Program-made: the position numbers and the translations under genes | The notes under the pieces: generated by a model | What the model saw: the letters and a program-made list of their open reading frames with translations, nothing else | Database searches by the model: none | Told to the model about the DNA's origin: nothing | Part shown: positions 9,239-24,060 of the stretch, one piece after another | Position numbering within the stretch: the stretch's first letter is position 1 | How the letters are laid out: each line of letters opens with the position of its first letter | Assembly (NCBI GenBank): GCA_051866635.1 | Contig: JBJDXJ010000052.1 | Location: 14,744-78,743 of the forward strand | DNA from: Clostridia bacterium | GTDB taxonomy: Bacteria; Bacillota; Clostridia; UMGS1883 | Direction: 5' to 3' | DNA: 64,000 bases

Positions 9239-9379
9239 AAAATTCCTTAAATTGTGGCGTTTAAAAAAATTACATAAAAAACACAAGAAATTTTAATAAT
9301 TTTTGTTGATATTTTCTAAAAAAGATGTTATTATTATGTTATCAAATTTATGCCTTTAAGGCATGGGAGGAGAAAAGAT

Positions 9380-12300
9380 ATGAACAAATTATTCAAATCA
9401 GTAGTATCTTTGGTAACTGCTGCAACTATGAGCCTTTCTGTCGCGGCTTCAATGGCGGTTACTGCAGGTGCTGCAGAAGACAAGGGTGCAATTATGCCTA
9501 CTTACGAAAGCACAATTGCAGCTGTTGAAAAAGCTAACGATTATTACCAGTCAACGGTAGCTTATAACAAGCAGGAATATGGTATTCCAAACTGTTTCTG
9601 GGCAAAGGCTGCTTACGAAACAGGTAATATGGAAGCATATTACACAACAGGTATCGAAGCATATCGTGACTATGCTACAGCTTGGGCTATGGACTGTAAT
9701 TGGCAGGGTCATGGCTCTACAAATAAGTCTGCTTGGACATGGGGCTACAGCCAGACAATGAGTGGTAATGCAGCACTCTTCGGTGACTTCCAGATTTGTT
9801 TCCAGACTTATATTGATCTTTACAACATTGAAAAGAACGAATCAAAGGGTGCAGTTGTTGACAACTCAAAGATTGCAAGAGCAATCGAAGTAATGAGCGA
9901 AGAAATCTCCAGAAGCAATGACGATTTCTGGTGGTGGGCAGACTCTCTTTACATGGTTATGCCTGTTATGACAAAGCTCTACAAGGTTACCCAGGACGAA
10001 AAATACCTTGACGGTCTTTATAGATTCTGGAAGTATGCTAAGGAACTTATGTATGATGGTCCCGGCGGTATTCCTTCTGATGCGACAGGTTATACAACAT
10101 CAGCTAAGCTTACCAACGGTGCAAAATATTCAGATCCTGACAATTATGCGTACCTCTTCTTCCGTGATGCAGGTTATGTATATCCCTTAAAGCCTAACCC
10201 CGGTCATGAAAATGAAAAGAACTTCTGGGCACGTGGTGACGGTTGGGTATTTGCAGGTTTGGCAAAGGTACTCCAGGATATGCCTGATGATTACGAACAC
10301 TATAACGACTTCCTTCAGACATACCTTGAAATGGCTCCCGCTATCAAGGCTTGTATGAGAGTGGACGAAAATGGTTACGGTTTCTGGACACAGTCAATGC
10401 TCCAGGGTTATCCCACTTCCGCTTCTAACCCCAACGGTTATGAAACAAGTGGTACAGCATTCTTTACATACGGTTTCGCTTGGGGTATTAACTCCGGCGT
10501 ACTCGACAGAGATGAATACCTTGAAACAGCAGTTCGTGCTTGGAACTACCTTGCAAACATTGCTCTTCAGCCTGATGGTATGGTTGGTTATACACAGTAT
10601 ATCGGTTCTAACGCTGTTGAAGCTATGGGCCCCAGAAACAATCAGAACTTCGGTACAGGTGCTTACCTCCTTGCAGGTTGTGAAATGTCCCGTCTTGTTG
10701 GCGGTAGCCAGGGAGATATCTATCCCCAGCTCCAGAGAAAGATGGAAACATACATTGCATTCCGTGTAAACACACCTCACTACTATACAGGTGGTAAGAT
10801 TGGTCATATTGAAGAAACAGACCACAAGGTTGAAGTTTACCTTAAGGTAGATGACAACGGCAACAGAACAAGCATGATTCCTGCTCGTCTTATCGTTGAA
10901 ACATTCGGCGGCAACGTAGCATGGAATGAAGCTGCAAGAACAGTTACAGCTACGATCGGCGACAGAACAGTTGTATTTACTGTAGGCAGCAATGTTATCA
11001 CAGTTAACGGTGAAGCTATGACAGCTCCCACAGCTACTGAAATTGTAGGTGGCAGAACATTCGTTCCTCTCCGTGCACTTGCTGAATCTCTCGGCAAGAA
11101 GGTTTACTGGAGCCAGGGCGATTCTCCCGAAAACGGTCTTATCGTTATCGGTCATAAGGCAACACCTTTCTATTCTTGCGATACAAATCTTGTAGAAATG
11201 CTTAGAAATATGCTCGGCAAGCCCGAAACATATCCTACAAGACCTGCACAGAAGGTTAAGGATTTCGCTCCTAAGATTACTCCTGTTTCCGCAACTGCAA
11301 GAGGTACAAAGATTAACCTTACATCAGTTACATATTCTCAGGAACCTGAAGCTAATAACCCCGGCAGACACGTAATCGATAACACAACAGGTACTTACTG
11401 GGCTTCTAACGGTTCAGCAACAGCTGTTGTAGATCTTGGCTCAAACAAACCTGTAAGCAGTGTTGGTGTATTGTTCCGTGTTTATGATGACGACAGAACA
11501 ATTCCATTCTCTATTTATGTTTCCAACGATAATTCAAAATGGGAACTTGTGGGTGCTTCTGTTTCCGTAGCACGTTCCAATAAGCCTATTTACATGGATG
11601 CTAACAAGAGTGCAAGATATGTAAAGTTCCAGTTCGATGGTAACTCCATTTCAGGTTGGAACAGCGTTGATGCTATAGAAGTTTACGAAGGCGATGCTTC
11701 TTCCGTATCCGAAATAAAGAACGATACAACAACTAATACTGCAAATACAACTACAACTAACAAGGCTACAGGTACAAAGATTAATGTTTCAGCTTCTTCT
11801 GTAACATTCAGTCAGGAACCCGAAGCTAAAAACCCCGGCAAAAACGCATTCGATGGCAATGCAGCTACAGTATGGGCTTCTCAGAACGCTGCTAATGCAG
11901 TTATCGACCTTGGTAAGTCCACTCCTGTAAGCAGTGCAGGTGTTAAGTTCATGGTTTACGGAGACGACAGAACAATTCCTTTCTCTGTTGCAGTATCTGA
12001 TGACAAGGCAACATGGACGACTGTTTACACAGGTTCTTCCGTACCTTACGGTGCTGACTTCATTTATGTAACAGTTGGCAAGAATGCAAGATACGTTAAG
12101 TTTACGTTTGAAGGTAACACAGTATCAGGTTGGTCTTCTGTTGCAGAAATGGAAGTTTACACAGGTGATGTTACAGCGGCTGATACAGAAACAACTACTA
12201 CAACAGCAAATACTGTTGAAGGTAAGGTTGTAAACGCTGCTACAGGTTCAAAGGTTACACTTACAGCTAATATGCTTAAGGCTTCTGCTACTCCTGAAGC

Positions 12301-12643
12301 TGAAAACCATGCAGGCAACCTTATTGATGGCAACAAGCAGACAGTATGGGCTTCTCAGAACCAGTCTAACGTAGTTATTGACTTAGGCAGTAAGAAAACA
12401 CTTTCTTGCGTAGGCGTAGCTATGAAGATGTATGACGACACAAGAACAATTCCTTATGATATTGAAGTTTCTGTTGACGGCACAACATACACAAAGGTAT
12501 GGAGTGGCGACAGTGAACCTCAGACAGATACAACAAAGTATGTATCCTTCTCTGCAGATGCACAATACGTAAGAATTACTGCTTACGGCAACACTGTTTC
12601 CGGTTGGAACAGCGTAGCTGAAGTTGAAGTATACTCTAAGTAA
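9380..12643 (+). CDS. secreted GH88/GH105-family (unsaturated glucuronyl/rhamnogalacturonyl hydrolase-like) enzyme with copper-amine-oxidase-N-like beta-sandwich domain and three C-terminal F5/8 type C (discoidin/CBM32-like) modules
   Basis: Signal peptide MNKLFKSVVSLVTAATMSLSVAASMAVTAGA. (alpha/alpha)6 hydrolase motifs DFWWWADSLYMVMP and FWARGDGW. Domain VAWNEAARTVTATIGDRTVVFTVG...FVPLRALAESLG. Three ~135-aa repeats of the form ...QEPEA.NPG...WAS...VIDLG...RYVKF...SGW.SV.E.EVY. Confidence 0.75.
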   Translation: MNKLFKSVVSLVTAATMSLSVAASMAVTAGAAEDKGAIMPTYESTIAAVEKANDYYQSTVAYNKQEYGIPNCFWAKAAYETGNMEAYYTTGIEAYRDYATAWAMDCNWQGHGSTNKSAWTWGYSQTMSGNAALFGDFQICFQTYIDLYNIEKNESKGAVVDNSKIARAIEVMSEEISRSNDDFWWWADSLYMVMPVMTKLYKVTQDEKYLDGLYRFWKYAKELMYDGPGGIPSDATGYTTSAKLTNGAKYSDPDNYAYLFFRDAGYVYPLKPNPGHENEKNFWARGDGWVFAGLAKVLQDMPDDYEHYNDFLQTYLEMAPAIKACMRVDENGYGFWTQSMLQGYPTSASNPNGYETSGTAFFTYGFAWGINSGVLDRDEYLETAVRAWNYLANIALQPDGMVGYTQYIGSNAVEAMGPRNNQNFGTGAYLLAGCEMSRLVGGSQGDIYPQLQRKMETYIAFRVNTPHYYTGGKIGHIEETDHKVEVYLKVDDNGNRTSMIPARLIVETFGGNVAWNEAARTVTATIGDRTVVFTVGSNVITVNGEAMTAPTATEIVGGRTFVPLRALAESLGKKVYWSQGDSPENGLIVIGHKATPFYSCDTNLVEMLRNMLGKPETYPTRPAQKVKDFAPKITPVSATARGTKINLTSVTYSQEPEANNPGRHVIDNTTGTYWASNGSATAVVDLGSNKPVSSVGVLFRVYDDDRTIPFSIYVSNDNSKWELVGASVSVARSNKPIYMDANKSARYVKFQFDGNSISGWNSVDAIEVYEGDASSVSEIKNDTTTNTANTTTTNKATGTKINVSASSVTFSQEPEAKNPGKNAFDGNAATVWASQNAANAVIDLGKSTPVSSAGVKFMVYGDDRTIPFSVAVSDDKATWTTVYTGSSVPYGADFIYVTVGKNARYVKFTFEGNTVSGWSSVAEMEVYTGDVTAADTETTTTTANTVEGKVVNAATGSKVTLTANMLKASATPEAENHAGNLIDGNKQTVWASQNQSNVVIDLGSKKTLSCVGVAMKMYDDTRTIPYDIEVSVDGTTYTKVWSGDSEPQTDTTKYVSFSADAQYVRITAYGNTVSGWNSVAEVEVYSK
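11291..12640 (+). repeat. three tandem ~405-nt intragenic repeats (11291-11693, 11764-12166, 12239-12640) encoding discoidin-like modules separated by Thr-rich linkers
   Basis: Nucleotide- and protein-level periodicity inside the 9380-12643 CDS. Linkers are NDTTTNTANTTTTN and TAADTETTTTTANT. Confidence 0.8.
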
Positions 12644-12651
12644 GTTAAAAT

Positions 12652-12686
12652 TTGAGAGAGAGCCGTTTTAAACGGCTCTCTTTTGC
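12652..12686 (+). terminator. rho-independent terminator
   Basis: gagagagagccgtttt-aaacggctctctt hairpin followed by a T-run. Confidence 0.7.
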
Positions 12687-12759
12687 GTTGTCCGAAAATT
12701 TTGTTTATGCACGGTTCACGGTTAAATCATACGATTTCTTCCAAGCTTTATTATATCTC

Positions 12760-12819: not shown

Positions 12820-13767
12820 ATGCAGAGATATTTGTTTGTTCATTTTAAAGAAAAAACAACCCCCGACGGAGAGCAGGTTTACTTTGCCTTGTCAGAAGAC
12901 GGGTTTAAATGGGAAGAGGTTAACGGCGGAGAGCCTTTATTATGGGCATATTACGGAGATAAAGGCGTAAGGGACTTTACAATAACAAGATGCAACGGTA
13001 AATATTTTATTATAGCAACAGACCTTAGCCTGTCCTACGGAATGAGAAATCAGTACAACCATTCATGGAAAGAAATCAGTGAACATGGCAGTAAGTGCTT
13101 TTCTGCATGGGAAAGTGAAGATTTGGTTAACTGGAGCGAGCAAAAACTTGTGAAAATCGGCGATGAGCATTTCGGCTGTATGTGGGCACCTGACGTTATT
13201 TTCGACAGAAAAAAGGGTGACTATATCCTTCACTGGTCCTCCAGCCACGACTGTAACGGCTTTGGTGATAAGGGGATTTATTATTCCAGAACAAAGGATT
13301 TTGAAAACTTTACATACCCTGAGGTTTTGCACAGAAGTGAAGGTAGGGATATTATAGATTCTGCAATGTATGAGGAGAACGGGGTTTACTACATGTTTGT
13401 AAAGGACGGACACCCCACCACCATTGTTATGCTGAAATCTGATTCTCCTACAGGACCTTGGGAAAGGGTAGAGGCATTTGACGAAAGCATGAAAAAAATT
13501 GAGGTAGGCTTGTATGAAGCACCAACCGCGGTGAAGCTTGATTGTGGCAGATGGTGTCTCTTTTTGGATTATTACGGAAAGCCCGGAAAAGAACAGGGTT
13601 ACATACCCTTTGTGTCTGAGGATATTTCTTCCGGTGTTTTTGTAAGGGCAGATGAGGAGTTTAGTTTCCCTTACGGATTTAAGCACGGCACAATCATTGC
13701 AATAACTGATGAAGAATATGACAGAATTAAAAAACATGATTGGGAAAATGTCCCTGACAGAAGATAA
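12820..13767 (+). CDS. cytoplasmic glycoside hydrolase, 5-bladed beta-propeller superfamily (GH43-like; GH32/43/117/130 clan)
   Basis: No signal peptide. Motifs RDFTITR..GKYFIIATD, W.SEDLV.W, HFGCMWAPDVIF and GVYYMFVKDG resemble GH43-clan propeller blades. Exact family not resolved. Confidence 0.5.
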   Translation: MQRYLFVHFKEKTTPDGEQVYFALSEDGFKWEEVNGGEPLLWAYYGDKGVRDFTITRCNGKYFIIATDLSLSYGMRNQYNHSWKEISEHGSKCFSAWESEDLVNWSEQKLVKIGDEHFGCMWAPDVIFDRKKGDYILHWSSSHDCNGFGDKGIYYSRTKDFENFTYPEVLHRSEGRDIIDSAMYEENGVYYMFVKDGHPTTIVMLKSDSPTGPWERVEAFDESMKKIEVGLYEAPTAVKLDCGRWCLFLDYYGKPGKEQGYIPFVSEDISSGVFVRADEEFSFPYGFKHGTIIAITDEEYDRIKKHDWENVPDRR

Positions 13768-13785: not shown

Positions 13786-14499
13786 ATGAGACGAAAAGAA
13801 ATATCAGATGGAATTAAAGACGGTGTGCCTATAGCATTAGGGTACTTTTCTGTATCGGTAGCATTCGGGGTGTCAGCAGTACATTCAGGTGTGCCTGCAT
13901 GGGGTGCAACGCTTATATCCCTTACAAATCTGACAAGTGCCGGACAGAAAGCAGGCGTGGATGTTATGGCAATAGGCGGCAGTTTTCTGCTTTTGGTTCT
14001 TACCACATTAATTATAAATCTCAGGTATTTTCTGATGGGTATATCCGTGTCGCAGAAAGTTGAGAAAGACATGAGCTTAAAGAAAAGACTATTGGTGTCT
14101 TTTGGTATAACCGATGAAATATATGCTGTCAGCATGGCGAGAAAAACAAGTTTGTCATTCCCTTATATGGTTGGGTTGATTGTGCCGCCGATTATTGGGT
14201 GGACAAGCGGTACACTGGTAGGCTCTGTTGCAACAAATTTTATGCCTACAGTTTTAGCAGATGCCATGGGGATTGCATTGTACGGAATGTTTATAGCAGT
14301 TATCGTGCCTCCAAGTAAGGAAAATAGGAATGTTCTTGTTACCGTTGTCATGGCAATTTTGTTGAGTGTAATATTCACCTATGTACCTCTTTTGGAAAAG
14401 ATATCTTCAGGTTGGGCGGTAATTATTATAACTGTATTGGTAAGCAGTATTGCGGCAACATTATTCCCCGTGGAGGAGAGTGAAACAAATGAGCAGTAA
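13786..14499 (+). CDS. azlC: branched-chain amino acid permease AzlC family
   Basis: N-terminus GIKDGVPIALGYFSVSVAFGV is typical of AzlC. Multi-TM protein followed by an AzlD-like small membrane protein. Confidence 0.8.
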   Translation: MRRKEISDGIKDGVPIALGYFSVSVAFGVSAVHSGVPAWGATLISLTNLTSAGQKAGVDVMAIGGSFLLLVLTTLIINLRYFLMGISVSQKVEKDMSLKKRLLVSFGITDEIYAVSMARKTSLSFPYMVGLIVPPIIGWTSGTLVGSVATNFMPTVLADAMGIALYGMFIAVIVPPSKENRNVLVTVVMAILLSVIFTYVPLLEKISSGWAVIIITVLVSSIAATLFPVEESETNEQ

Positions 14500-14800
14500 G
14501 TATATTTTTATGGCTATTTTCGCAATGGCAATCACCACATATCTGATAAGAATGTTGCCTATGGCAATTTTCAGAAAGAAAATTGAAAACAAGTGGATAA
14601 AGTCATTTTTGTATTATGTACCTTATGCGGTTTTATCTGCCATGACTTTTCCTGCCGTGTTTACCAGTACAGGCAGTGTACTTGGTGCAAGTTTAGGCTG
14701 TGTTACAGCCATAGTTCTGGCATATTTCAATAAGGGCCTTTTAACTGTTGCAATCGGTGCGGCAGTTATGGCTTTCCTGGTTCAGATAATAGGGGGTTAA
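14489..14800 (+). CDS. azlD: branched-chain amino acid transport protein AzlD
   Basis: ~100-aa hydrophobic protein overlapping the azlC end. RBS ggaggagag lies upstream of ATG 14489. Confidence 0.7.
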   Translation: MSSKYIFMAIFAMAITTYLIRMLPMAIFRKKIENKWIKSFLYYVPYAVLSAMTFPAVFTSTGSVLGASLGCVTAIVLAYFNKGLLTVAIGAAVMAFLVQIIGG

Positions 14801-14801
14801 G

Positions 14802-15530
14802 ATGAAAATTTTAATTATACGTCATGCGGACCCTGACTATTCAATCGATTCACTTACGAAAAAGGGGTGGTTTGAGGCTGAATGTCTGTCCGAAAAGCTT
14901 GTAAACATGAAAATTGATGCCTTTTATACTTCAACATTAGGCAGGGCAAAGGATACGGCATCATGTACATTGAAAAAACTTGGCAGAGAACCTGACGGAG
15001 TTTTTGAATGGCTTAAGGAATTTCCACCTACAATAATCCGTCCCGATTGCGGCAAAAGTATTGCGTGGGACTGGCTCCCTTCAGATTGGACAAAGGTAGA
15101 TGAATTTTATAACAAAGACCAATGGGGCAAAGTTCCCGTTATGGCAGAGGGCAAAGTTTTAGAAGAATACAACCGTGTGGTGGAGGAATTTGATAAAATC
15201 ATTTCAAAGCACGGTTATATTCGTGAGGGTAACTACTACAGAGCTGAAAAGCCGAATGATGACACTTTGGCATTTTTTTGTCACTTTGGGTCGGGATGCG
15301 TACTCATAAGCCACCTTTTAGGTATTTCGCCCATGGTTTTGTGGCACGGACTTTGTGCCGCACCTTCTTCCGTTACAACTTTAACAACAGAGGAAAGGCG
15401 TAGAGGAATTGCATCTTTCAGAATGAACAGCTACGGCGATATTTCCCATTTATATGCAAAAGGGGAAGAACCTGCCTTTGCGGCAAGATTTTGCGAAATG
15501 TTCGATAATACAGATGAAAGACATGACTAA
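14802..15530 (+). CDS. histidine phosphatase family protein (phosphoglycerate mutase-like)
   Basis: N-terminal IIRHADP (RHG-type motif) ... TSTLGRAKDTA. Confidence 0.65.
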   Translation: MKILIIRHADPDYSIDSLTKKGWFEAECLSEKLVNMKIDAFYTSTLGRAKDTASCTLKKLGREPDGVFEWLKEFPPTIIRPDCGKSIAWDWLPSDWTKVDEFYNKDQWGKVPVMAEGKVLEEYNRVVEEFDKIISKHGYIREGNYYRAEKPNDDTLAFFCHFGSGCVLISHLLGISPMVLWHGLCAAPSSVTTLTTEERRRGIASFRMNSYGDISHLYAKGEEPAFAARFCEMFDNTDERHD

Positions 15531-15567
15531 AAAATGGTATAAATAAGATAAGCAGTTTTAAAATTAA

Positions 15568-15604
15568 AAGCCGTCTGTAGTCAACCTACAGACGGCTAAA
15601 TTTA
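15568..15604. terminator. bidirectional terminator hairpin
   Basis: agccgtctgtag-tcaac-ctacagacggct flanked by A/T runs, between convergent genes. Confidence 0.7.
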
Positions 15605-15664
15605 TGCCTTCTATCAATCTTTTCTATTTCCGATAATTCTGTCGGAAAAAAACAGGCGCATTAA

Positions 15665-15883
15665 TCAAATCGGAAATATTTGCCTCCGGTGCATCTGTAA
15701 TATTATAAAAGCAAAAGGGCAAGCAATATCGGGTGCTTCAATTGCACTGATGTGGGAGCGACTGACATGTGCCGGTGCGGCAAGTTTCTCTTGCGATAAA
15801 CCTCTCATTTTTCTAATGGTTGATATTGCAATACCCAATTGTATAAATCTATCACGGTTTTTAAAACTGACTACACCACTCAT
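15665..15883 (-). CDS. XRE-family helix-turn-helix protein (small)
   Basis: IRKMRGLSQEKLAAPAHVSRSHISAIE matches the HTH_XRE pattern. C-terminus is atypical. Confidence 0.5.
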   Translation of the reverse strand: MSGVVSFKNRDRFIQLGIAISTIRKMRGLSQEKLAAPAHVSRSHISAIEAPDIACPFAFIILQMHRRQIFPI

Positions 15884-15922
15884 TCCTGTTCACCTTCCTT
15901 TTACATGATATTATACTTTGTT

Positions 15923-17854: not shown

Positions 17855-17859
17855 AGTAA

Positions 17860-18444
17860 ATGAGAAAATTATTATTGATTTTTATGTGCCTTGTGCTTTC
17901 AGGCTGTGGTAAAAATGTAGCCATTATAGGAGGAAGTGACGGACCCACAAGTATTTATATTTCCGATAATGAAAATACAGATATAACTCCTGTAAAAATG
18001 ATAAAGGTTGACGGAAGTCTGTATTATGAAAGCGGCAAGGTCAGCAATTTAACCGCCCGTTGCGGTACAATGGACGGAAATCTTACAAAAACCGTAGGCG
18101 AATTTGAAATACCGAAAAATGACAATGAATGTAATTTTGAAGGCTCCACAGGTTATCAAAATGTAACAGACACCACAAAAGAATTACCAATAGATGATAC
18201 TTGGGTAGTTTTCAAAAAAATTGTTGATGATGAAATGGATTTTAGTCAATATACCTATTGTGTAAAAGTTAAGGGCAGACACCCAAATGCCGCTTGTGAT
18301 AGCGAATATATTGTGCTTTCAAAGGATTTGGATATAACATTTCAAAAGATTGAAAAGCATTTGTTTTCATCCTTGTTAAGTGACAGTTTAGATGTTTATC
18401 TTATACCTGTACTTGATGAAGAAGACAGTTCTGTTATTGAATAA
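17860..18444 (+). CDS. hypothetical lipoprotein
   Basis: Signal peptide with lipobox LVLSGC. No recognisable domain. Confidence 0.5.
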   Translation: MRKLLLIFMCLVLSGCGKNVAIIGGSDGPTSIYISDNENTDITPVKMIKVDGSLYYESGKVSNLTARCGTMDGNLTKTVGEFEIPKNDNECNFEGSTGYQNVTDTTKELPIDDTWVVFKKIVDDEMDFSQYTYCVKVKGRHPNAACDSEYIVLSKDLDITFQKIEKHLFSSLLSDSLDVYLIPVLDEEDSSVIE

Positions 18445-19489
18445 TTCCGCCGCCCACAACAATGTCACCATCATATAAAACTACTGACTGACCTTTTGTT
18501 ATGGCACGCTGAGGCGTATCAAATACCACCTTTATTGTATCTTCGTCAAGCTGTGTTACAGTGGCAAATTGTTCTTTATGGCGATAACGGACTTTAGCTT
18601 TAACACGCATAGGTTCATTTATTTTGTCTACGGAAACAAGATTGATGTTTTTTGCAATAAGCGTATCTGTAAAAAGGTCATCATTTGAGCCTAATATAAC
18701 TTTGTTTTCTTCTATGTCCACCTTTACTACATATAAAGGGGCAGAGTAGGCAATACCTAAACCTTTCCTTTGACCTACTGTGTAACGGATTATGCCCTTA
18801 TGCTTGCCTAAAACTTCACCGCCCACTGTTACAAAATCTCCCGGAGGGTATTTCTTTTTCTGTGTGCGTTCGATAAAATCATAATACATTTCGTTCTTTA
18901 CAAAGCAAATATCCTGGCTGTCTCCTTTGTCTGCATTGACAAAGCCTGCTTCTTCAGCGAGCATCCTTGTTTCCTCCTTTGTCATAGAACCTAAAGGAAA
19001 GATTGCACGGGAGAGCTGTTTTTGTGTAAGTGAATAAAGAACGTAGCTTTGGTCCTTGGAGTCATCAAGGGCCTTTTTTAATATAAATCTGCCGTTTTCT
19101 TCGTTCTTTTCAATACGTGCATAATGTCCCGTTGCAACTTTGTCACAACCCATTTTTTCCCCTTCATTAAATAACCTTTCAAATTTCATGTAACGGTTAC
19201 AGTCGACACAAGGATTGGGGGTCATTCCGTTTTCATATGCATAAATAAACTTGTCTATTACATTTTCCTGAAAGCCTTGTGCAAAATCTTTCACGAAATA
19301 GGGTATTGACAAGCTGTCTGCAACGCTTTGTGCATCTTCAATATCTTTCTTAGTACAGCATGCAGGCTCGCTGTCACCGTCAAAAAGCTTCATAGTTATG
19401 CCAAGGCAATCATAGCCTTTCTTTTTCATTAAAAGAGCAACAACAGAGGAATCAACGCCGCCACTCATTGCTATAAGCACTTTAGTCAT
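18434..19489 (-). CDS. mnmA: tRNA 2-thiouridine(34) synthase
   Basis: PP-loop SGGVDSSV. Conserved MnmA Cys residues. Length 351 aa. Confidence 0.9.
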   Translation of the reverse strand: MTKVLIAMSGGVDSSVVALLMKKKGYDCLGITMKLFDGDSEPACCTKKDIEDAQSVADSLSIPYFVKDFAQGFQENVIDKFIYAYENGMTPNPCVDCNRYMKFERLFNEGEKMGCDKVATGHYARIEKNEENGRFILKKALDDSKDQSYVLYSLTQKQLSRAIFPLGSMTKEETRMLAEEAGFVNADKGDSQDICFVKNEMYYDFIERTQKKKYPPGDFVTVGGEVLGKHKGIIRYTVGQRKGLGIAYSAPLYVVKVDIEENKVILGSNDDLFTDTLIAKNINLVSVDKINEPMRVKAKVRYRHKEQFATVTQLDEDTIKVVFDTPQRAITKGQSVVLYDGDIVVGGGIIQ

Positions 19490-19493
19490 ATCT

Positions 19494-20504
19494 CTATCTC
19501 CTCACATCTCCACGTGCAGTTACTATGCGGTAGCCGACACTTTCTACACGTTTTTCAAGGCAAATACGGCACTCTGCCGCTTCGTCACCTGTACAGATTT
19601 TGTTTTCATATAAAGCATAGAGCTTTCTTACCCGCAGGGGAGAAAGGTTCGGCATTACAACATTTGCCCCTGCCTTTAAGCCTAATTCCCGCCCTTGGGG
19701 ATGTATTGTGCCAAGGGCTGTTGTGGCAGGGATAAGTGCATAGGGGAATAGTAACCTTAGTATTGCAACCATACGCAGTGTTAATTCCAGCTTTCCGCTT
19801 TCATACTCTGCAAAGGGAGTTTCTTTATGTGTTATATAAGGACCTATGCCTATCATATCGGGAGAAAGGTCCTGTAAAAATCTTAAATCCGAAACTAAGT
19901 TTTCGGTAGTCTGGAAAGGTGAACCCACCATAAAACCGCTTCCTACCTGATATCCTATATCCTTTAAGTCATACAAACAGCGTTTTCTTACATCAAGGCT
20001 CATTTCTTTTGGGTGAAGTTTGCCGTAATGACATTCATCCGCTGTTTCATGACGGAGTAAATAACGATTTGCCCCTGCGTTGAAGTAGGCTTTGTAGCTT
20101 TCTTTACTCTTTTCACCGATTGACAGAGTTATTGCACATTCGGGATACTTTTCACGGATGGCAGAAACTATTTCACATATTTTATCATCTGTAAAAAAGT
20201 TATCTTCGCCGCCCTGAAGCACAAAAGTTCTGAAGCCTAAGGAGTAACCTTCTTTTGAGCATTCAAGTATTTCTTCTTTTGTCAGGCGGTAACGAATTGC
20301 ATTTTTATTGCCTGCACGTATTCCACAGTAATAGCAGTTGTTTTTACAGTAGTTTGTAAATTCAATAAGTCCGCGGATGTAAACGTCGGTGCCGTAATGT
20401 TCTCTGCGGATATTATCTGCTTGTAAAAACAGCTCACTGTCGTATTTATCTGTATTTATTAAGTTTATTAATTCATCATTTGTAAGGTTTTTAATATTAA
20501 TCAC
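19494..20504 (-). CDS. hydE: radical SAM protein, [FeFe]-hydrogenase maturase HydE-like (BioB/HydE family)
   Basis: CKNNCYYCGIRAGN (CX3CX2C) followed by RYRLTKEEILE and LQGGED, resembling HydE more than BioB. Assignment is by motif only. Confidence 0.55.
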   Translation of the reverse strand: MINIKNLTNDELINLINTDKYDSELFLQADNIRREHYGTDVYIRGLIEFTNYCKNNCYYCGIRAGNKNAIRYRLTKEEILECSKEGYSLGFRTFVLQGGEDNFFTDDKICEIVSAIREKYPECAITLSIGEKSKESYKAYFNAGANRYLLRHETADECHYGKLHPKEMSLDVRKRCLYDLKDIGYQVGSGFMVGSPFQTTENLVSDLRFLQDLSPDMIGIGPYITHKETPFAEYESGKLELTLRMVAILRLLFPYALIPATTALGTIHPQGRELGLKAGANVVMPNLSPLRVRKLYALYENKICTGDEAAECRICLEKRVESVGYRIVTARGDVRR

Positions 20505-21267
20505 TGTTATTTCTCCTTATAGAAATTCCAACCCTGTCTGCGTTTGGGAAAGTTTTTCTGTATTGTGTGGGGGTAACACCCTCATGTTTTTTGAAAATTT
20601 TGAAAAACGCCTTACTGTCTGTAAAGCCACACTGCCTTGCAACCTCGTCTATTGGAAGGTGGGAACAGAGTAATATCTGTTTGGCACTTGCAATGCGGCA
20701 GAAGGTAATATAGCTTTTTGCACTTTTGCCTGTTTTGTCCCTGACTTTTGCCGAAATGTAGTCAGGGCTGTAGCCAAACTCACGGGCAATAGAAGTAACA
20801 TTAATGTTTTCTGAAAAGTGCTTTTCAATCCATTTACAAATCTCGCTTCCTAACAAAAGGTGAGGGTTGTTATTTCCTGAAATTTCGTTCTGTATTCCAT
20901 GTATAAGAAGTGTTGTGGCACAATCGGCATCAGAGCCTTTTATATATGCGAAATGAAACACCTGTCTGAAAAGCTGAATAGCCTGAGTGGAATTATCTAA
21001 ATGATAAATAAGGGGGATGGAGATTTCTTCGTCTGTCAAAAAATGCACCCAGTAAAATTCCACCTTTTCTTCGCTTTCACGCCACCCGTAATGGAGGCGG
21101 TTTGCCGGGAGGAAAACAAGGTCATTTTCCTTTACTGTGAGCTTTTCATCTTCAAAAGACAGGTACATTGTACCCTTACGCATTAATATAAGCTCGTTAA
21201 AACGCATAACCCGTCTCATGTGTATGAAATTTTTCTCAAACTGAAATTTGCCGCATTCATCAAACAT
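20497..21267 (-). CDS. AraC-family transcriptional regulator (cupin sensor + C-terminal HTH)
   Basis: C-terminal AraC HTH (ITFCRIASAKQILL...GFTDSKAFFKIFKK). Start trimmed to the ATG at 21267, which has an aaggtgg RBS. The ORF-track start at 21438 runs into the divergent promoter region. Confidence 0.75.
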   Translation of the reverse strand: MFDECGKFQFEKNFIHMRRVMRFNELILMRKGTMYLSFEDEKLTVKENDLVFLPANRLHYGWRESEEKVEFYWVHFLTDEEISIPLIYHLDNSTQAIQLFRQVFHFAYIKGSDADCATTLLIHGIQNEISGNNNPHLLLGSEICKWIEKHFSENINVTSIAREFGYSPDYISAKVRDKTGKSAKSYITFCRIASAKQILLCSHLPIDEVARQCGFTDSKAFFKIFKKHEGVTPTQYRKTFPNADRVGISIRRNNSD

Positions 21268-21384
21268 TATCACGGATTTTGCCACCTTTATCACGGAAAT
21301 ATGGATTGCACTATTACATAATTGAGTGTAATCTATAAGTAGTTTAACATATTTGATAATATAAGTAAAGGAGAAAATGAAAAA

Positions 21385-24060
21385 ATGAAAAAACGGATTT
21401 TGGCACTTGCTGCGGCAGGCATTATCCTGTGCGGTCAATTTACTGCATACGCCAAAGATTATGCAAATTGCTCCTTATCTGTTGAAAACGGGGAAGCAAA
21501 AGCATCTTTTCACGTTGAAAGTGATGAAGAAAATCTTATGGCATCAATTATTGTAAAGGATGATGAAAATAACATCAAATCAATTGAAACAGAAGTATTT
21601 GACGGAAAAGACAAAACAGATTTTTCAATTAAAACAGTTATTCCGTCTGAGAAAGGATTAAGCATAAAAACTATGCTGTGGAACAAGTTTATGAACCCTT
21701 TAATATACGGTAAAACAATTGTGTACGAGAACAATCCTTCAAAAGGTTTTGTTGACATGAACAATGTAACATTAAACGACGGTATGTTTAAAACAAGTCA
21801 AGATTTGGGTCTTGATTATGTACTTAGCATGGACGTTGACAGACTTCTTGCTCCAAGTTTTGAAATGGCGGGCTTACCTACACCAAACGGTAAAGTGCGT
21901 TACGGCGGATGGGAAAAGAAAGGTGCAAGTAACTGGGGCTGGTCGGCTGACACATTTACATTGGCAGGTCATACTTTAGGTCACTGGATGAGTGCGGCAT
22001 CCGTTATGTACGCCTCAACCAAAGATGAAGAAGTTAAATCCCGGCTTGATTATGCCGTTTCACAGCTTGGATATATACAGGAAACCACAAAAAGCGGATA
22101 TATAGGCGGCTGCAATGAAGAATGTTTTACAAAGCTTTTCAGCGGAAATACAAGTTCATGGGCAAATAATTACTGGGTGCCATGGTACGGCATACATAAA
22201 ATTTATCAGGGACTTATTGATGCTTACGAATATACAGGAAATTATGAGGCATTAAATGTTTGCACTAACTTTGCCGACTGGGCTATGGATGGCTTAAATA
22301 AGCTGACAGACAGCCAAGTTCAGACGATGTTAAATGTGGAATACGGTGGCATGAATGACGTTTTTGCCCGTCTTTACAAATTGACAGGCAGAAAAGAATA
22401 TTTAACTACTGCAAGGCGTTTTACACATGATAACATATTAAACCCCTTAATTAACGAACAGGACGCACTTTCAGGCTTACATGCAAATACACAGATACCC
22501 AAAATTATAGGTGCGGCTGAAATTTTTGAAAATGACAGTGTAACCTATCAGAATTACGGTAAAGCCGCAAAGTTTTTCTGGGACAGAGTTGTAAACACAC
22601 GTTCTTATGTAATAGGCGGTAACAGCGTTTCAGAACATTTCGAGGCAATAGGTCTTGAATCACTTCATCACAAAACTGCGGAAAGCTGTAATACATATAA
22701 TATGTTAAAGCTGACAGAGCATCTTTATAATTGGGAACATAAATCCGAATACATGGACTTTTATGAAAAAGCTCTCTACAACCACATTTTAGGTTCACAG
22801 GACCCTGAAACGGGAAATAAAATGTACTTTGTGTCACTTCTGCAGGGTCATTACCGTATTTACGGAACAATGCATGATTCTTTCTGGTGCTGTACAGGTA
22901 CAGGTATGGAAAACCCGGGCAGATATTCAAAGTGTATCTACTATAAAGATAATAACGATTTGTATATTAACCTTTATATTCCTTCAACTGTTACATGGGA
23001 GGAAAAGAATCTTACACTTACTCAAGAGACTAGCTATCCTTACGAGGACAAAATTCGTATTACAATAGCTGACGGAGAAGCTGATGCCACACTTAAATTC
23101 CGTGTTCCCTCTTGGGCAAAGACAGGTGCAACTGCTACATATAATGGTGAAGTTTATACAAAGAACAGTGCAGGATACCTTGAAATTACAAACAGCTTTA
23201 AAAAGGGTGATGTAATCGAGCTTACAATACCTATGGAGCTTGAAATTTATAATTCAAGAACGGCTAATCAGGTTGCATTTACATACGGTCCTGTTGTTCT
23301 TGCGGCACCCTTGGGAACAGAAAACTTTCCAAATGATACTGTTGAAAAGGAAACAGGCTTAGATACCACAACTACAGATGTCCCGTTTATCGTTTATGAA
23401 GGTGACAACATAAATGAGCTTATAGAAATGGTTGAGAGTGAAGGTCTTACATTTAAACTTAAGGGCGAATATATGTCAGAAGGGGAAGATGTTTTGTTAA
23501 AGCCCTTCTACGAAATACACCACCAGTTCCATAATGTTTACTGGAACATGAACATGGCGGGGGATTTGTTCTTAAAGAGACTTAACAATGTGACAATCGA
23601 TCAGGTACAGCCTGACGGTCAGCAGGACGAATTAGGTCATAACCTTGAAACTAATTCTACGGGCACAGGACATAACGGCTCCTTCTCATCGGGCGGCAAT
23701 AACTATATGTGGCGTGATGCATGGGGCAGTAGCGACAGTTATTTCTCTTATATGTTAGGTGTTGACAAGGATATAAAGAATTATCTCTGCGTTGCTTACT
23801 GGGGAAGCGATGGTCCTTTCAATAAGAATGGAAAAACTTATACACGTGATTTCTCCATCTATGTTGACGGCGTGAAAATTGCAACACAGGTAATTAATAA
23901 CAATAAGCCGGGTAGTCCCTATTATTGTTATTATGAAATCCCTAAGGAATTGACAAAGGATAAAGAAGCTGTGACTGTAAAGTGGCAGGTTAACGGCGAA
24001 AGCAGTTGTGCAGGCGGTGTTCTGGAAGCACGCATAGTTTCCGAAATTATAGAACAGTAA
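21385..24060 (+). CDS. secreted DUF1680-family glycoside hydrolase (GH127/GH146-like beta-L-arabinofuranosidase family)
   Basis: Signal peptide MKKRILALAAAGIILCGQFTAYA. Conserved HTLGHW, EYGGMND and Cys-rich FWCCTGTGMEN block, as in the GH127 Zn/Cys active site. Extra N- and C-terminal beta-sandwich domains. Confidence 0.7.
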   Translation: MKKRILALAAAGIILCGQFTAYAKDYANCSLSVENGEAKASFHVESDEENLMASIIVKDDENNIKSIETEVFDGKDKTDFSIKTVIPSEKGLSIKTMLWNKFMNPLIYGKTIVYENNPSKGFVDMNNVTLNDGMFKTSQDLGLDYVLSMDVDRLLAPSFEMAGLPTPNGKVRYGGWEKKGASNWGWSADTFTLAGHTLGHWMSAASVMYASTKDEEVKSRLDYAVSQLGYIQETTKSGYIGGCNEECFTKLFSGNTSSWANNYWVPWYGIHKIYQGLIDAYEYTGNYEALNVCTNFADWAMDGLNKLTDSQVQTMLNVEYGGMNDVFARLYKLTGRKEYLTTARRFTHDNILNPLINEQDALSGLHANTQIPKIIGAAEIFENDSVTYQNYGKAAKFFWDRVVNTRSYVIGGNSVSEHFEAIGLESLHHKTAESCNTYNMLKLTEHLYNWEHKSEYMDFYEKALYNHILGSQDPETGNKMYFVSLLQGHYRIYGTMHDSFWCCTGTGMENPGRYSKCIYYKDNNDLYINLYIPSTVTWEEKNLTLTQETSYPYEDKIRITIADGEADATLKFRVPSWAKTGATATYNGEVYTKNSAGYLEITNSFKKGDVIELTIPMELEIYNSRTANQVAFTYGPVVLAAPLGTENFPNDTVEKETGLDTTTTDVPFIVYEGDNINELIEMVESEGLTFKLKGEYMSEGEDVLLKPFYEIHHQFHNVYWNMNMAGDLFLKRLNNVTIDQVQPDGQQDELGHNLETNSTGTGHNGSFSSGGNNYMWRDAWGSSDSYFSYMLGVDKDIKNYLCVAYWGSDGPFNKNGKTYTRDFSIYVDGVKIATQVINNNKPGSPYYCYYEIPKELTKDKEAVTVKWQVNGESSCAGGVLEARIVSEIIEQ

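What the first reader, a model, noticed from the sequence alone, without database searches (positions are those of the whole stretch)
9349..24060. Carbohydrate-active gene block: GH88/105-like enzyme with 3x discoidin/CBM32 repeats, GH43-clan propeller, AraC regulator and secreted DUF1680 (GH127/146-like) enzyme
A 1087-aa secreted protein combines an (alpha/alpha)6 unsaturated-glycuronyl-hydrolase-like domain (FWARGDGW), a copper-amine-oxidase-N-like domain and three tandem F5/8 type C modules. A cytoplasmic GH43-clan protein follows. 8 kb downstream, an AraC regulator is divergently transcribed from a secreted DUF1680 enzyme carrying the Cys-rich FWCCTGTGMEN block characteristic of GH127 beta-L-arabinofuranosidases. 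Together with azlCD and a phosphatase in between, this looks like a plant-glycan locus, for pectin/rhamnogalacturonan or arabinogalactan/extensin side chains. A GH88/105 domain combined with triple CBM32 is an unusual architecture.
Basis: partly seen in the sequence, partly recalled or inferred. Interest (0 to 1): 0.5.

Follow-up and report, generated by a model that had tools for sequence, protein, structure and literature searches.

The report
Scattered plant-glycan enzymes, not a locus
Three real plant-sugar-degrading enzyme genes of an uncultured herbivore-gut Clostridia bacterium sit among housekeeping genes rather than in one locus, and the large secreted one belongs to a widespread, unstudied group of enzymes that probably strip uronic-acid caps from plant arabinogalactans.

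Summary

- **Large protein.** Gene 9380-12643 encodes a secreted 1087-aa protein. It has a GH88/GH105-fold barrel, a copper-amine-oxidase-N-like domain and three CBM32 modules.
- **GH43-related protein.** 12820-13767 encodes a cytoplasmic five-bladed propeller.
- **AraC and DUF1680.** AraC (20497-21273, minus strand) is divergent from a secreted DUF1680 enzyme with intact Cys/Glu residues. This enzyme is GH146 (BT0349-like), not GH127.
- **Not a locus.** GH105 ends in a terminator. azlCD, radC, mnmA and hydE lie between the enzyme genes. In related genomes GH105, GH43-rel and AraC are each present or absent independently.
- **Not unusual.** The barrel + CuAO_N1 + CBM32 architecture occurs in 46 of the best 120 homolog clusters. 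Full-length 1087-1107-aa orthologs occur in at least three ruminant or human-gut MAGs.
- **Likely role.** The barrel is GH105-type and keeps the YteR D143 equivalent. Its nearest clade (PDB 5NOA/4Q88) sits beside, or is fused to, GH145, GH154 and GH43_24 enzymes of arabinogalactan-protein loci. I infer extracellular removal of unsaturated glucuronate caps.
- **Main rival.** 5NOA is titled "polysaccharide lyase" (PL27), so a rhamnose-glucuronate lyase remains possible.

Interest is modest.

The parts
9306..9334 (+). Promoter-like site of the GH105-type gene (TTGATA, 17 nt, TG-TATTAT)
   Evidence: Found by the consensus scan. The whole stretch from here to the ribosome-binding site is nearly identical in the orthologous loci L014, L015 and L017.
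9380..12643 (+). Secreted 1087-aa modular enzyme: signal peptide, (alpha/alpha)6 GH105-type barrel, Cu_amine_oxidN1-like beta domain, and three CBM32 modules joined by Thr-rich linkers
   Evidence: Pfam. AF2 model with pLDDT 86. Sequence and fold matches to the PDB. Full-length orthologs are 64-71% identical.
9500..10705 (+). Catalytic (alpha/alpha)6 barrel, residues about 41-442; D188 in WWADSLYM aligns with the catalytic D143 of YteR
10058..10153 (+). Insertion of about 28-32 residues (GPGGIPSD...DNYAY, residues 227-258), specific to the Clostridia clade
   Evidence: Present in the window, its ortholog, and in secreted and cytoplasmic paralogs. Absent from 5NOA, P0098, P0108, P0119, P0068 and 4CE7. 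Modelled with pLDDT of about 97-98.
10745..11218 (+). Beta-rich domain containing the Cu_amine_oxidN1 match, followed by a helix (residues about 456-613)
   Evidence: Pfam PF07833, E 3.3e-25. Confident strands at residues 459-591 and a helix at 599-613. The same module occurs in LRR/SLH surface proteins of related MAGs.
11297..11695 (+). CBM32 module 1 (residues 640-772)
   Evidence: F5_F8_type_C. Best PDB match is YeCBM32, a polygalacturonate binder. It keeps the Arg in DDRT and the Trp in SGWNS.
11765..12166 (+). CBM32 module 2 (residues 796-929)
   Evidence: F5_F8_type_C. 56% identical to module 1 and 49% to module 3, so these are old duplications. It keeps DDRT and SGWSS.
12218..12640 (+). 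CBM32 module 3 (residues 947-1087)
12649..12689 (+). Intrinsic-terminator-like hairpin directly after the GH105 stop codon, followed by UUUUG
   Evidence: Folding energy -21.3 kcal/mol, z -4.53, and none of 200 shuffles folds as well.
12820..13767 (+). Cytoplasmic 315-aa GH43-related five-bladed propeller (PF22847-type), a separate transcription unit
   Evidence: Own promoter-like site at 12760-12787 and AGGAG ribosome-binding site. Pfam GH43 at 36.7 bits. NCBIfam alpha-arabinofuranosidase BAD_1527 at 140 bits, below the 500-bit cut-off. Homologs are 67-86% identical and lie next to GH36, GH42, GH29 and GH51 genes. Best PDB TM-scores are 0.5-0.6 at 12-18% identity.
13786..20504 (.). Intervening genes that are not part of any glycan system: azlC, azlD, histidine phosphatase, two XRE HTH genes (-), radC (-), YaeI-like phosphoesterase, lipoprotein, mnmA (-), hydE (-)
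   Evidence: Pfam and NCBIfam. Gene calls in the identical contig L012. HydE scores 565.7 bits against a cut-off of 254.6.
20497..21273 (-). AraC-family regulator (cupin/AraC_binding plus HTH_18), divergent from GH146
   Evidence: Pfam. The gene start is taken from calls in L012 and L048. Present beside GH146 in L048 and absent in L013.
21274..21384 (.). 111-bp divergent intergenic region between AraC and GH146
   Evidence: Sequence read. Partly conserved with L048.
21385..24060 (+). Secreted 891-aa GH146-type beta-L-arabinofuranosidase candidate: signal peptide, N-terminal module of about 90 aa, (alpha/alpha)6 catalytic domain, two beta-sandwich domains, and a C-terminal jelly roll (DUF6805)
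   Evidence: Pfam. 5OPJ (BT0349) at E 4e-126 over residues 116-763. Candidate acid/base E417, and Zn/nucleophile set E433, C435, C502, C503 (PMC10850190). A 100% identical protein, P0241, comes from a Clostridia MAG.

Best explanation
The region holds three independent plant-glycan enzyme genes embedded in a conserved housekeeping stretch of an uncultured gut Clostridia genome.

**The 1087-aa protein.**
- It is exported. This is inferred from its signal peptide.
- Its (alpha/alpha)6 domain is a GH105-type exo-unsaturated-uronyl hydrolase. The fold and the catalytic Asp are shown; the activity is inferred.
- It would hydrate the C4=C5 double bond of a 4,5-unsaturated uronate at a non-reducing end, which releases that sugar.
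- The most likely substrate is the unsaturated glucuronate cap left on the beta-1,6-galactan side chains of type II arabinogalactan / arabinogalactan-protein. That cap forms after a rhamnose-glucuronate lyase (GH145, PL42 or PL27) or a glucuronate dehydratase (GH154) has acted.
- A Gram-positive cell has no periplasm, and the cap stays attached to the polymer, so this step must happen outside the cell.
- The three CBM32 modules are of the uronate-terminus-binding type found in AlyQ and YeCBM32. They would hold the enzyme on such ends.

**The other two enzymes.**
- The neighbouring cytoplasmic GH43-related propeller probably trims imported arabino- or galacto-oligosaccharides.
- The GH146 enzyme is a Zn/Cys beta-L-arabinofuranosidase of the BT0349 type, probably controlled by the adjacent AraC regulator.

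The three genes are not co-transcribed, and across genomes they are not inherited together.
For: **Fold and catalytic residue.**
- PF07470 at E 2.4e-54.
- The catalytic D143 of YteR aligns with D188, which is at least 90% conserved in 70 homologs.
- The FWARGDGW, ETSGTAF and NFGxGA motifs are shared with the proven GH105 enzyme 4CE7.

**Link to arabinogalactan-protein.** The closest clade (5NOA/4Q88) is 42-46% identical to the window. Members that are 66-79% identical to 5NOA show these contexts:
- P0119 is fused to GH145; its C-terminal half matches 5MUK (BT3686) at 7e-146.
- P0068 is fused to a GH43_24 exo-beta-1,3-galactanase, matching 6EUG at 2e-106.
- The gene lies directly beside GH145 in 3 of 4 Bacteroidota loci.
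- It lies directly beside a GH154 glucuronate dehydratase in a SusC-SusD-GH154-PF07470 mini-locus.

**Published precedents.**
- GH154 dehydratases pair with GH88/GH105 hydrolases (PMC12269599).
- A GH105 next to a GH145 removes the unsaturated product from arabinogalactan-protein (PMC8406133).

**CBM32 modules.** All three keep the equivalents of AlyQ R248 and W303. AlyQ's CBM32 binds cleaved but not intact alginate (PMC5651945). The best structural match is the complex with unsaturated mannuronate.

**No operon or locus.**

**GH146 assignment and catalytic residues.**, and PMC10850190.
Against: - The PDB entry 5NOA is titled 'Polysaccharide Lyase BACCELL_00875'. PMC8377490 lists BACCELL_00875 as a PL27 rhamnose-glucuronate lyase. 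If that is correct, the nearest characterised relative is a lyase, not a hydrolase.
- No lyase or dehydratase gene was found in the window or in the roughly 0.6 Mb of related Clostridia loci that were fetched. The enzyme that would make the substrate is therefore unidentified.
- In the Clostridia the gene is an orphan among housekeeping genes. The arabinogalactan-protein link thus rests on relatives that are only 42-46% identical.
- A PL11 rhamnogalacturonan lyase carrying the same CBM32 type lies about 6 kb from a single-CBM32 paralog in two rabbit-gut MAGs. This hints at pectin instead.
- A clade-specific insertion of about 28-32 residues could change specificity.
Confidence: 0.45

Rival explanations
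1. The barrel is a PL27-type L-rhamnose-alpha-1,4-D-glucuronate lyase. It would be a secreted first-step enzyme that removes the rhamnose caps of arabinogalactan-protein side chains by beta-elimination. The CBM32 modules would bind the uronate ends it creates, as in the alginate lyase AlyQ.
For: - The closest solved structure, 5NOA (42% identity, TM 0.91), is titled 'Polysaccharide Lyase BACCELL_00875'. BACCELL_00875 is one of three characterised PL27 enzymes (PMC8377490).
- No second entry with that title appeared among the top (alpha/alpha)6 matches.
- Extracellular location with several CBMs is typical of polymer-active lyases. All the best CBM32 matches come from lyases or pectate binders.
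- Giant paralogs carry CBM96 and Laminin_G_3 modules.
- Tyr residues conserved in the window and in the 5NOA clade (Y266, Y404) are Phe or Trp in the hydrolase 4CE7.
Against: - The molecule name of 5NOA is 'Family 88 glycosyl hydrolase'.
- PMC8377490 describes PL27 as an N-terminal beta-sandwich plus an (alpha/alpha)6 barrel. 5NOA (381 aa) and the window domain lack the beta-sandwich.
- RefSeq names the PL27 protein BT0263 'Six-hairpin glycosidase' (PMC10434189). It names all 5NOA-like proteins 'glycoside hydrolase family 88 protein'.
- The mini-locus SusC-SusD-GH154 dehydratase-PF07470 makes sense with a hydrolase, not with a second enzyme that also makes unsaturated glucuronate.
- The GH105 catalytic Asp and the -1 subsite motifs are fully kept.
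Confidence: 0.25
2. The enzyme is an extracellular unsaturated rhamnogalacturonyl or galacturonyl hydrolase for pectin. It would remove the unsaturated galacturonate left on rhamnogalacturonan-I or homogalacturonan fragments by PL11, PL4 or PL1 lyases.
For: - GH105 is best known for this activity, as in YteR.
- CBM32 module 1 best matches the polygalacturonate-binding YeCBM32.
- A PL11 lyase with CBM32 modules about 48% identical to the window's lies about 6 kb from a single-CBM32 paralog in L002 and L038.
- The host habitat, the herbivore gut, is pectin-rich.
Against: - The domain is only 19-23% identical to YteR-type enzymes. It is 30-32% identical to the beta-glucuronyl-type enzyme 4CE7 and 42-46% to the clade linked to arabinogalactan-protein.
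- Housekeeping genes separate the PL11 gene from the paralog.
- No pectin lyase, esterase or GH28 gene lies near the window gene.
Confidence: 0.2
3. The finding as written: one co-regulated plant-glycan utilisation locus spanning 9349-24060. The AraC regulator would control GH105, GH43-rel and GH146 together.
For: - The three CAZyme genes lie within 15 kb.
- AraC and GH105 co-occur in the window and in L048, and both are missing in L013.
- The GH43-rel domain family (PF22847) also occurs in the Bacteroidota arabinogalactan-protein loci that hold the 5NOA-like gene. It shows 27% identity over the full length, E 1e-19.
Against: - A terminator follows GH105.
- Each gene has its own promoter-like site.
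- Eleven unrelated genes on both strands lie in between.
- The genes are gained and lost independently across three genomes.
- The only motif shared by the GH105 and GH146 upstream regions is an AT-rich 14-mer that is not conserved in L048.
- The window has no transporter gene.
Confidence: 0.07

Closest known systems
PDB 5NOA (Bacteroides cellulosilyticus; entry title 'Polysaccharide Lyase BACCELL_00875', molecule 'Family 88 glycosyl hydrolase') and PDB 4Q88 (Bacteroides vulgatus)
   Same: - All conserved motifs are shared, including LFGDxQxCFQTY, WWADxLYM and FWARGDGW.
   Different: - These are single-domain lipoproteins of about 360-380 aa, encoded in Bacteroidota polysaccharide utilisation loci.
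- The window protein is a 1087-aa secreted modular protein of a Gram-positive bacterium. It has an insertion of about 28-32 residues, a CuAO_N1 domain and three CBM32 modules, and it is not in a locus.
- Whether 5NOA is a lyase or a hydrolase could not be settled here.
GH105 unsaturated beta-glucuronyl hydrolase of Nonlabens ulvanivorans (PDB 4CE7), and the GH105 enzymes next to GH145 in Bacteroides arabinogalactan-protein loci (BACPLE_00337, PMC8406133)
   Same: - The proposed chemistry is the same: hydration of a 4,5-unsaturated uronate cap.
   Different: - The N-terminal half of the barrel is divergent.
- The substrate of 4CE7 is ulvan.
- These enzymes carry no CBMs and are periplasmic or act on oligosaccharides.
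YteR / YesR, the GH105 unsaturated rhamnogalacturonyl hydrolases of Bacillus subtilis
   Same: Fold and catalytic Asp are shared: YteR D143 aligns with window D188.
   Different: - Identity is only 19-23%.
- They are cytoplasmic and single-domain.
- They act on alpha-linked unsaturated galacturonate from rhamnogalacturonan-I.
AlyQ (PL7 alginate lyase with a CBM32) and YeCBM32
   Same: - The CBM32 subtype is the same, with the carboxylate-binding Arg and the conserved Trp.
- In AlyQ the module binds lyase-generated ends (PMC5651945).
   Different: - In the window the modules are attached to a GH105-type barrel rather than a PL7 domain.
- There are three tandem copies, 42-56% identical to each other.
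BT0349, the GH146 beta-L-arabinofuranosidase of Bacteroides thetaiotaomicron (PDB 5OPJ)
   Same: - The match is E 4e-126 over catalytic, beta-sandwich and C-terminal regions.
[quoted passage not shown]
   Different: - The window protein has an extra N-terminal module of about 90 aa and a Sec signal peptide.
- It is paired with an AraC regulator rather than lying in a rhamnogalacturonan-I locus.

Membership tests
GH105 | (alpha/alpha)6 barrel homologous to YteR and 4CE7 | tested here: met
   [not shown]
GH105 | Catalytic aspartate equivalent to YteR D143 | tested here: met
   YQMWLD143GLYM aligns with FWWWAD188SLYM. D188 is at least 90% conserved in 70 homologs.
GH105 | Hydrolysis of a 4,5-unsaturated uronate by hydration of the double bond | not testable with these tools
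   This needs an enzyme assay.
GH88 | Closer to unsaturated glucuronyl hydrolases (UGL; 1VD5, 3WIW) than to GH105 enzymes | tested here: not met
   [not shown]
PL27 | Homology to a characterised PL27 enzyme (BT0263, BACCELL_00875, BACFIN_07013) | tested here: inconclusive
   5NOA carries the title 'Polysaccharide Lyase BACCELL_00875'. Its molecule name, the published PL27 domain description (PMC8377490), the RefSeq name of BT0263 (PMC10434189) and the gene context all point the other way. The primary paper is not held.
PL27 | [quoted passage not shown] | tested here: not met
   The barrel starts directly after the signal peptide, with helices from residue 42. 5NOA also lacks such a domain.
PL27 | Catalytic tyrosine base | not tested
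   The residue number is not available to me. Several invariant Tyr residues exist (Y79, Y98, Y209, Y225, Y404).
CBM32 (uronate-binding subtype) | F5/8 type C beta-sandwich with the equivalents of AlyQ R248 and W303 | tested here: met
   [not shown]
GH146 | Closer to BT0349 and Bll3HypBA1 than to GH127 | tested here: met
   E-values are 4e-126 and 4.5e-77, against 3e-12 for HypBA1.
GH146 | Zn site of Cys3-Glu with a cysteine nucleophile and a glutamate acid/base | tested here: met
   E433-x-C435 and C502-C503 align with the ExC and CC motifs of the BT0349 and 8K7X chains. PMC10850190 numbers these E723, C725, C804 and C805 in Bll3HypBA1. E417 lies 16 residues before E433, as E322 and E338 do in HypBA1; the HypBA1 numbers are recalled from memory (PMC10850190).
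GH127 | Best family assignment for the DUF1680 protein | tested here: not met
   The Pfam model PF07944 covers both families. The GH127 structures are about 110 orders of magnitude weaker in E-value than the GH146 structures.
GH43 (clan GH-F) | Five-bladed beta-propeller with the Asp/Asp/Glu catalytic triad | tested here: inconclusive
   Pfam GH43 scores 36.7 bits against a cut-off of 32.2. The model has a propeller fold, but the best TM-scores are only 0.5-0.6 at 12-18% identity. Invariant acidic residues exist (D16, D52, D68, D125, E185, E186, E233) but were not mapped onto a structure.
Polysaccharide utilisation locus / operon | Co-transcription, or conserved co-occurrence of the member genes | tested here: not met
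   There is a terminator and there are separate promoter-like sites. Intervening housekeeping genes lie on both strands. Presence and absence are independent in L013, L015 and L048.

The most novel reading that the evidence does not exclude
The Clostridia-specific branch is marked by an insertion of about 28-32 residues. Each genome carries secreted CBM32-bearing, giant multi-module and cytoplasmic paralogs. This branch may be a functionally distinct group within the GH105/PL27 fold. One possibility is a polymer-active extracellular enzyme that both eliminates the rhamnose cap and removes the resulting unsaturated glucuronate. Another is a new specificity for uronate-capped plant glycans in herbivore guts. 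Either could explain why no separate lyase or dehydratase was found in the fetched flanks of these genes.
Probability: 0.12. Interest if true: 0.55.

Novelty: new variant of a known kind. Interest (0 to 1): 0.3.

Why it matters
Rhamnose-glucuronate caps block exo-enzymes from arabinogalactan-proteins such as gum arabic. How they are removed is known only for Bacteroides and a fungus.

A secreted, CBM32-targeted GH105/PL27-fold enzyme is conserved, and present in several paralogs per genome, in uncultured Clostridia from ruminant, rabbit and human guts. This would be the first indication of how Gram-positive gut bacteria deal with such caps on the polymer itself.

The work also exposes an unresolved ambiguity. 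It is unclear whether the 5NOA-like clade consists of hydrolases or lyases, and this affects automatic CAZyme annotation of thousands of proteins.

Otherwise the region is ordinary.

Tried and rejected
1. **Finding out what PDB 5NOA is.**
   - Full-text searches for 5NOA, 4Q88, BACCELL_00875 and PL27 found only PMC8377490.
   - The primary papers PMC5555188, PMC5441751 and PMC6217937 are not held.
   - I tested whether the PF10022 gene of locus L005 was the real PL27. It is not. It matches glucuronate dehydratases of GH154 (PMC12269599).
2. **A shared AraC operator upstream of GH105, GH43-rel and GH146.** The only match is an AT-rich 14-mer with one mismatch, and it is not conserved in L048. 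I rejected it as chance.
3. **Horizontal transfer of the GH105 gene.** Its GC content is 0.43 against 0.385 for the window. However, its GC3 is 0.356, like the neighbouring genes. The excess therefore reflects amino-acid composition.
4. **Lyase, dehydratase or GH145 genes near Clostridia homologs.**
   - tblastn with GH145, GH154 and PL11 queries over all fetched loci found only PL11, in L002 and L038.
   - The Pfam family census of 102 neighbour proteins showed mostly housekeeping families plus a recurrent GH2. It lists only the 25 commonest families, so single lyase genes could have been missed.
5. **The GH43-rel protein as the partner of GH105.** Its homologs are not adjacent to GH105 elsewhere.
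6. **The GH43 part of the fusion protein P0068.** It is a GH43_24 enzyme and is unrelated to the window's GH43-rel protein.

Full report
**1. What is there**

The window is about 38% GC. It comes from an uncultured Clostridia genome.
- The 891-aa DUF1680 protein is 100% identical to a protein of a 'Clostridia bacterium' MAG (P0241).
- A Logan contig, L012, carries the same genes.

*The 1087-aa protein, 9380-12643 (+).*
- A GGGAGGAG ribosome-binding site precedes the ATG at 9380.
- It has a signal peptide.
- Pfam domains, in 1097-aa ORF numbering:
  - PF07470 (Glyco_hydro_88), E 2.4e-54, residues 72-449
  - Cu_amine_oxidN1, E 3.3e-25, residues 505-590
  - three F5/8-type-C (CBM32) stretches
- An AF2 model built on 70 homologs has pLDDT 86. 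It shows an all-helical barrel at residues 42-441, a confident beta domain at 459-613, and three beta-sandwiches joined by disordered Thr-rich linkers.
- The three CBM32 modules are 42-56% identical to one another. They are old duplications, not an assembly artefact.

*The other genes.*
- 12820-13767 (+) encodes a 315-aa protein with no signal peptide and a marginal GH43 match.
- AraC lies at 20497-21273 (-).
- The DUF1680 enzyme lies at 21385-24060 (+), 111 bp from AraC and divergent to it.

**2. It is not a locus**

*Separate transcription units.*
- A hairpin lies directly after the GH105 stop codon and is followed by UUUUG. It folds at -21.3 kcal/mol, z -4.5, and no shuffle does as well.
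- GH105 and GH43-rel each have their own promoter-like site and ribosome-binding site.

*Unrelated genes in between.* Between GH43-rel and AraC lie the following, on both strands:
- azlC and azlD
- a histidine phosphatase
- two XRE-type HTH genes
- radC
- a YaeI-like phosphoesterase
- a lipoprotein
- mnmA
- hydE, at 565.7 bits against a cut-off of 254.6

*The rest of the window is housekeeping*. It includes glf, alr, gatA, gatB, a low-molecular-weight phosphatase, trkHA, mreB, the purine operon, comEC and oxaloacetate decarboxylase. There is no sugar transporter, lyase or further CAZyme.

*Related genomes keep the synteny but vary the CAZyme genes*.

| Genome | GH105 | GH43-rel | AraC | GH146 |
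|---|---|---|---|---|
| Window | yes | yes | yes | yes |
| L015/L048 (GCA_045546275.1) | yes | no | yes | yes |
| L013 (GCA_054271515.1) | no | yes (plus an esterase) | no | yes |

Homologs of GH43-rel elsewhere sit next to GH36, GH42, GH29 and GH51 genes, not next to GH105. Single-CBM32 homologs of the big protein are orphans among housekeeping genes. A search for an operator shared by the three upstream regions found only a non-conserved AT-rich 14-mer.

**3. The architecture is common**

- Of the best 120 homolog clusters of the catalytic domain, 46 combine PF07470, Cu_amine_oxidN1 and CBM32. Most are about 745 aa with one CBM32, and all come from uncultured Clostridia or Oscillospiraceae.
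- Catalytic-domain matches of 79-82% identity occur in seven species-representative MAGs from goat, water buffalo and roe deer guts and other metagenomes.
- Four loci from three MAGs (RGIG1927, RGIG3131, GCA_045546275.1) carry a complete 1087-1107-aa ORF that is 64-71% identical overall. Seven of the eight loci in that identity band share gatA-gatB-phosphatase upstream; L016, a short contig, keeps only the phosphatase.
- The same three-CBM32 architecture was confirmed by Pfam for L015.
- These genomes hold three or four paralogs each:
  - giant secreted proteins of 1478-1971 aa with Laminin_G_3, Big_4 and CBM96 modules and a C-terminal PF07470 domain
  - cytoplasmic forms of about 400 aa
  - one degenerate copy in which the catalytic Asp is replaced by Ser
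- The window protein itself is missing from the protein collection. The probable reason is that assemblies break in the CBM32 repeats: L012 starts inside the gene.

**4. What the barrel is**

*Sequence matches to solved structures*.

| Structure | E-value | Identity to the window |
|---|---|---|
| 5NOA | 2e-92 | 42% |
| 4Q88 | 9e-76 | about 39% |
| 4CE7, a GH105 unsaturated beta-glucuronyl hydrolase of ulvan breakdown | 6e-37 | 30% |
| YteR | 1e-9 | not computed from sequence (19-23% in the structure alignments) |

No GH88 chain appears among these hits.

*Catalytic residue.* The catalytic Asp of YteR (D143) aligns with D188 in WWADSLYM. D188 is at least 90% conserved in 70 homologs.

The domain is therefore GH105-type rather than GH88.

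All Clostridia members share an insertion of about 28-32 residues (227-258). The Bacteroidota clade and 4CE7 lack it.

**5. Which substrate**

The nearest clade is tightly linked to arabinogalactan-protein breakdown. Its Bacteroidota members are 66-79% identical to 5NOA and 44-48% identical to the window.
- P0119 is fused to a GH145 domain, which matches 5MUK (BT3686) at 7e-146.
- P0068 is fused to a GH43_24 exo-beta-1,3-galactanase, which matches 6EUG at 2e-106.
- Four Bacteroidota loci were inspected.
  - In three the gene lies directly beside a GH145 (BNR_4) gene. These loci also hold SusCD, GH2, GH16, GH43, GH51, GH30 and GH154.
  - In the fourth it lies directly after a GH154 gene in a SusC-SusD-GH154-PF07470 mini-locus.

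Two published results explain this context.
- GH154 enzymes are beta-glucuronate dehydratases that prime glucuronate ends for GH88/GH105 hydrolases and co-localise with them (PMC12269599).
- In Bacteroides plebeius, the GH105 next to a GH145 removes the unsaturated product that the GH145 lyase makes from arabinogalactan-protein (PMC8406133).

The three CBM32 modules belong to the uronate-binding subtype.
- All three modules keep the equivalents of AlyQ R248 and W303.
- AlyQ's module binds cleaved but not intact alginate (PMC5651945).

**6. The unresolved point**

The Foldseek library gives the title of 5NOA as 'Polysaccharide Lyase BACCELL_00875'. PMC8377490 lists BACCELL_00875 among the three characterised PL27 rhamnose-glucuronate lyases. 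Taken at face value, the closest characterised relative is a lyase.

Five observations argue against this.
- The molecule name of 5NOA is 'Family 88 glycosyl hydrolase'.
- PMC8377490 describes PL27 as a beta-sandwich plus a barrel. The 381-aa chain of 5NOA lacks the beta-sandwich.
- RefSeq calls BT0263 'Six-hairpin glycosidase'. All 5NOA-like proteins are called 'glycoside hydrolase family 88 protein'.
- The gene context described above fits a hydrolase.
- The GH105 catalytic Asp and the -1 subsite motifs are fully retained.

The primary paper is not held. My rough estimates are:
- hydrolase activity on any unsaturated uronate, about 0.6;
- the specific reading of unsaturated-glucuronate caps on arabinogalactan-protein, about 0.45;
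- lyase, about 0.25.

A pectin role remains possible. A PL11 lyase with the same CBM32 type lies about 6 kb from a paralog in two rabbit-gut MAGs.

**7. The other two enzymes**

*The DUF1680 protein is GH146.*
- It matches BT0349 (5OPJ) at 4e-126 over residues 116-763, and Bll3HypBA1 at 4.5e-77. GH127 HypBA1 reaches only 3e-12.
- The ExC (E433, C435) and CC (C502, C503) motifs and E417 align with the Zn Cys3-Glu site and the acid/base residue (PMC10850190).
- It keeps the Trp aligned with BT0349 W162. It also keeps a C-terminal jelly roll (DUF6805), which in BT0349 covers the active site and suggests oligosaccharide substrates (PMC10850190).
- Close homologs (73-86% identity) have the same length. 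Paenibacillus homologs lack the N-terminal module of about 90 aa.

*GH43-rel.*
- It belongs to a well-conserved family of about 310-317 aa, 67-86% identical across Lachnospiraceae and related groups.
- Precomputed Pfam hits place it in PF22847. My own Pfam scan listed only the marginal GH43 match, with GH32N just below its cut-off.
- NCBIfam's nearest model is the alpha-arabinofuranosidase BAD_1527, at 140 bits and below its cut-off.
- The AF2 model (pLDDT 87.5) has no close solved relative. The best TM-scores are 0.5-0.6, to GH43, GH159 and GH62 structures.
- It aligns end to end, at 27% identity and E 1e-19, with the N-terminal propeller of two-propeller proteins found in the same Bacteroidota arabinogalactan-protein loci. 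This is a weak thematic link.

**8. Verdict**

The 'block' is not a locus. The two family assignments need refining: GH105-type rather than GH88, and GH146 rather than GH127. The architecture is a common but uncharacterised Clostridial variant.

Novelty: a new variant of a known kind. Interest: modest, 0.3.

Noticed in passing
window 9335-9379; L014, L015 and L017 just upstream of position 10001: A 15-nt palindrome, ATGCC-TTTAA-GGCAT, lies between the promoter-like site and the ribosome-binding site of the GH105 gene. Its stem is conserved in the orthologous loci while the loop varies (TTAAA, TAAAA). It could be a 5'-UTR hairpin or an operator.
   Followed up: partly
L015 9378-9854 (also L014 and L017); absent from window 9239-9379: Orthologous loci carry an Lrp/AsnC-family regulator gene between the phosphatase gene and GH105 (AsnC_trans_reg at 3.5e-17 for L015). 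The window has only a 141-bp intergenic region there.
   Followed up: partly
L022 6179-13252; similar layouts in L023-L028 and L031: A giant secreted paralog of 1689 aa (Laminin_G_3, Big_4, a stretch of about 500 aa without any Pfam match, and a C-terminal PF07470 domain) is followed by a HAD hydrolase. Then comes a 400-aa cytoplasmic PF07470 paralog. In the 1478-aa L034 protein, residues 1-1090 have no Pfam match at all.
   Followed up: partly
L029 9998-11398 and L030 9998-11398: This 467-aa paralog has degenerate active-site motifs. The catalytic Asp is replaced by Ser (FWHMASSLYM), RD becomes TD, and FWARGDGW becomes FSAMDNGL. It may be a pseudo-enzyme or a binding protein.
   Followed up: no
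L036 6069-8396, L039 7494-9821, L033 1123-3471, L035 976-3324, L042 2898-5276: A GH2 gene of about 780 aa (with DUF4982 and the GH2 C5 domain) recurs upstream of the Clostridia PF07470 paralogs and is often directly adjacent. A LacZ-type GH2 also flanks the gene in the Bacteroidota loci.
   Followed up: partly
L049 8730-11116 and L050 2369-4755: A minimal Bacteroidota locus consists of SusC, SusD, a GH154-type glucuronate dehydratase and a 5NOA-like PF07470 gene. The last two are only 24 bp apart. It looks like a two-enzyme device for removing terminal glucuronate (PMC12269599).
   Followed up: partly
window 10001-12000: GC is 0.44 against about 0.38 nearby, and the GC skew is near zero inside the GH105 gene. 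GC3 is 0.356, like the neighbouring genes, so the cause is amino-acid composition rather than foreign origin.
   Followed up: yes
window 17860-18444; L048 4412-7020; L013 7085-7813: The slot between the phosphoesterase gene and mnmA is variable. The window has a 194-aa lipoprotein with no family match. L048 has a Big_14 protein plus an SLH-serpin. L013 has a 242-aa protein with no family match.
   Followed up: no
window 15665-16171 (-): Two small XRE-type HTH genes lie upstream of radC on the minus strand. They are absent from L013 and L048.
   Followed up: no
window 33910-35620: Two adjacent ORFs of 161 and 361 aa have no significant Pfam family. ORFs 174-806 and 40494-41036 also have none.
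   Followed up: no
window 41122-43307: A tyrosine recombinase (XerC/D-like) gene lies next to a DinB/ImpB-family polymerase gene, just upstream of the purine biosynthesis operon at 43389-48716. A tRNA-Arg(CCT) gene is at 29386-29462.
   Followed up: no
L012 1-1259: The Logan contig of the same organism begins inside the GH105 gene. The best database hit, P0001, is a 'partial' protein. The CBM32 repeats appear to break short-read assemblies, so proteins with this architecture are under-represented or truncated in protein collections.
   Followed up: partly
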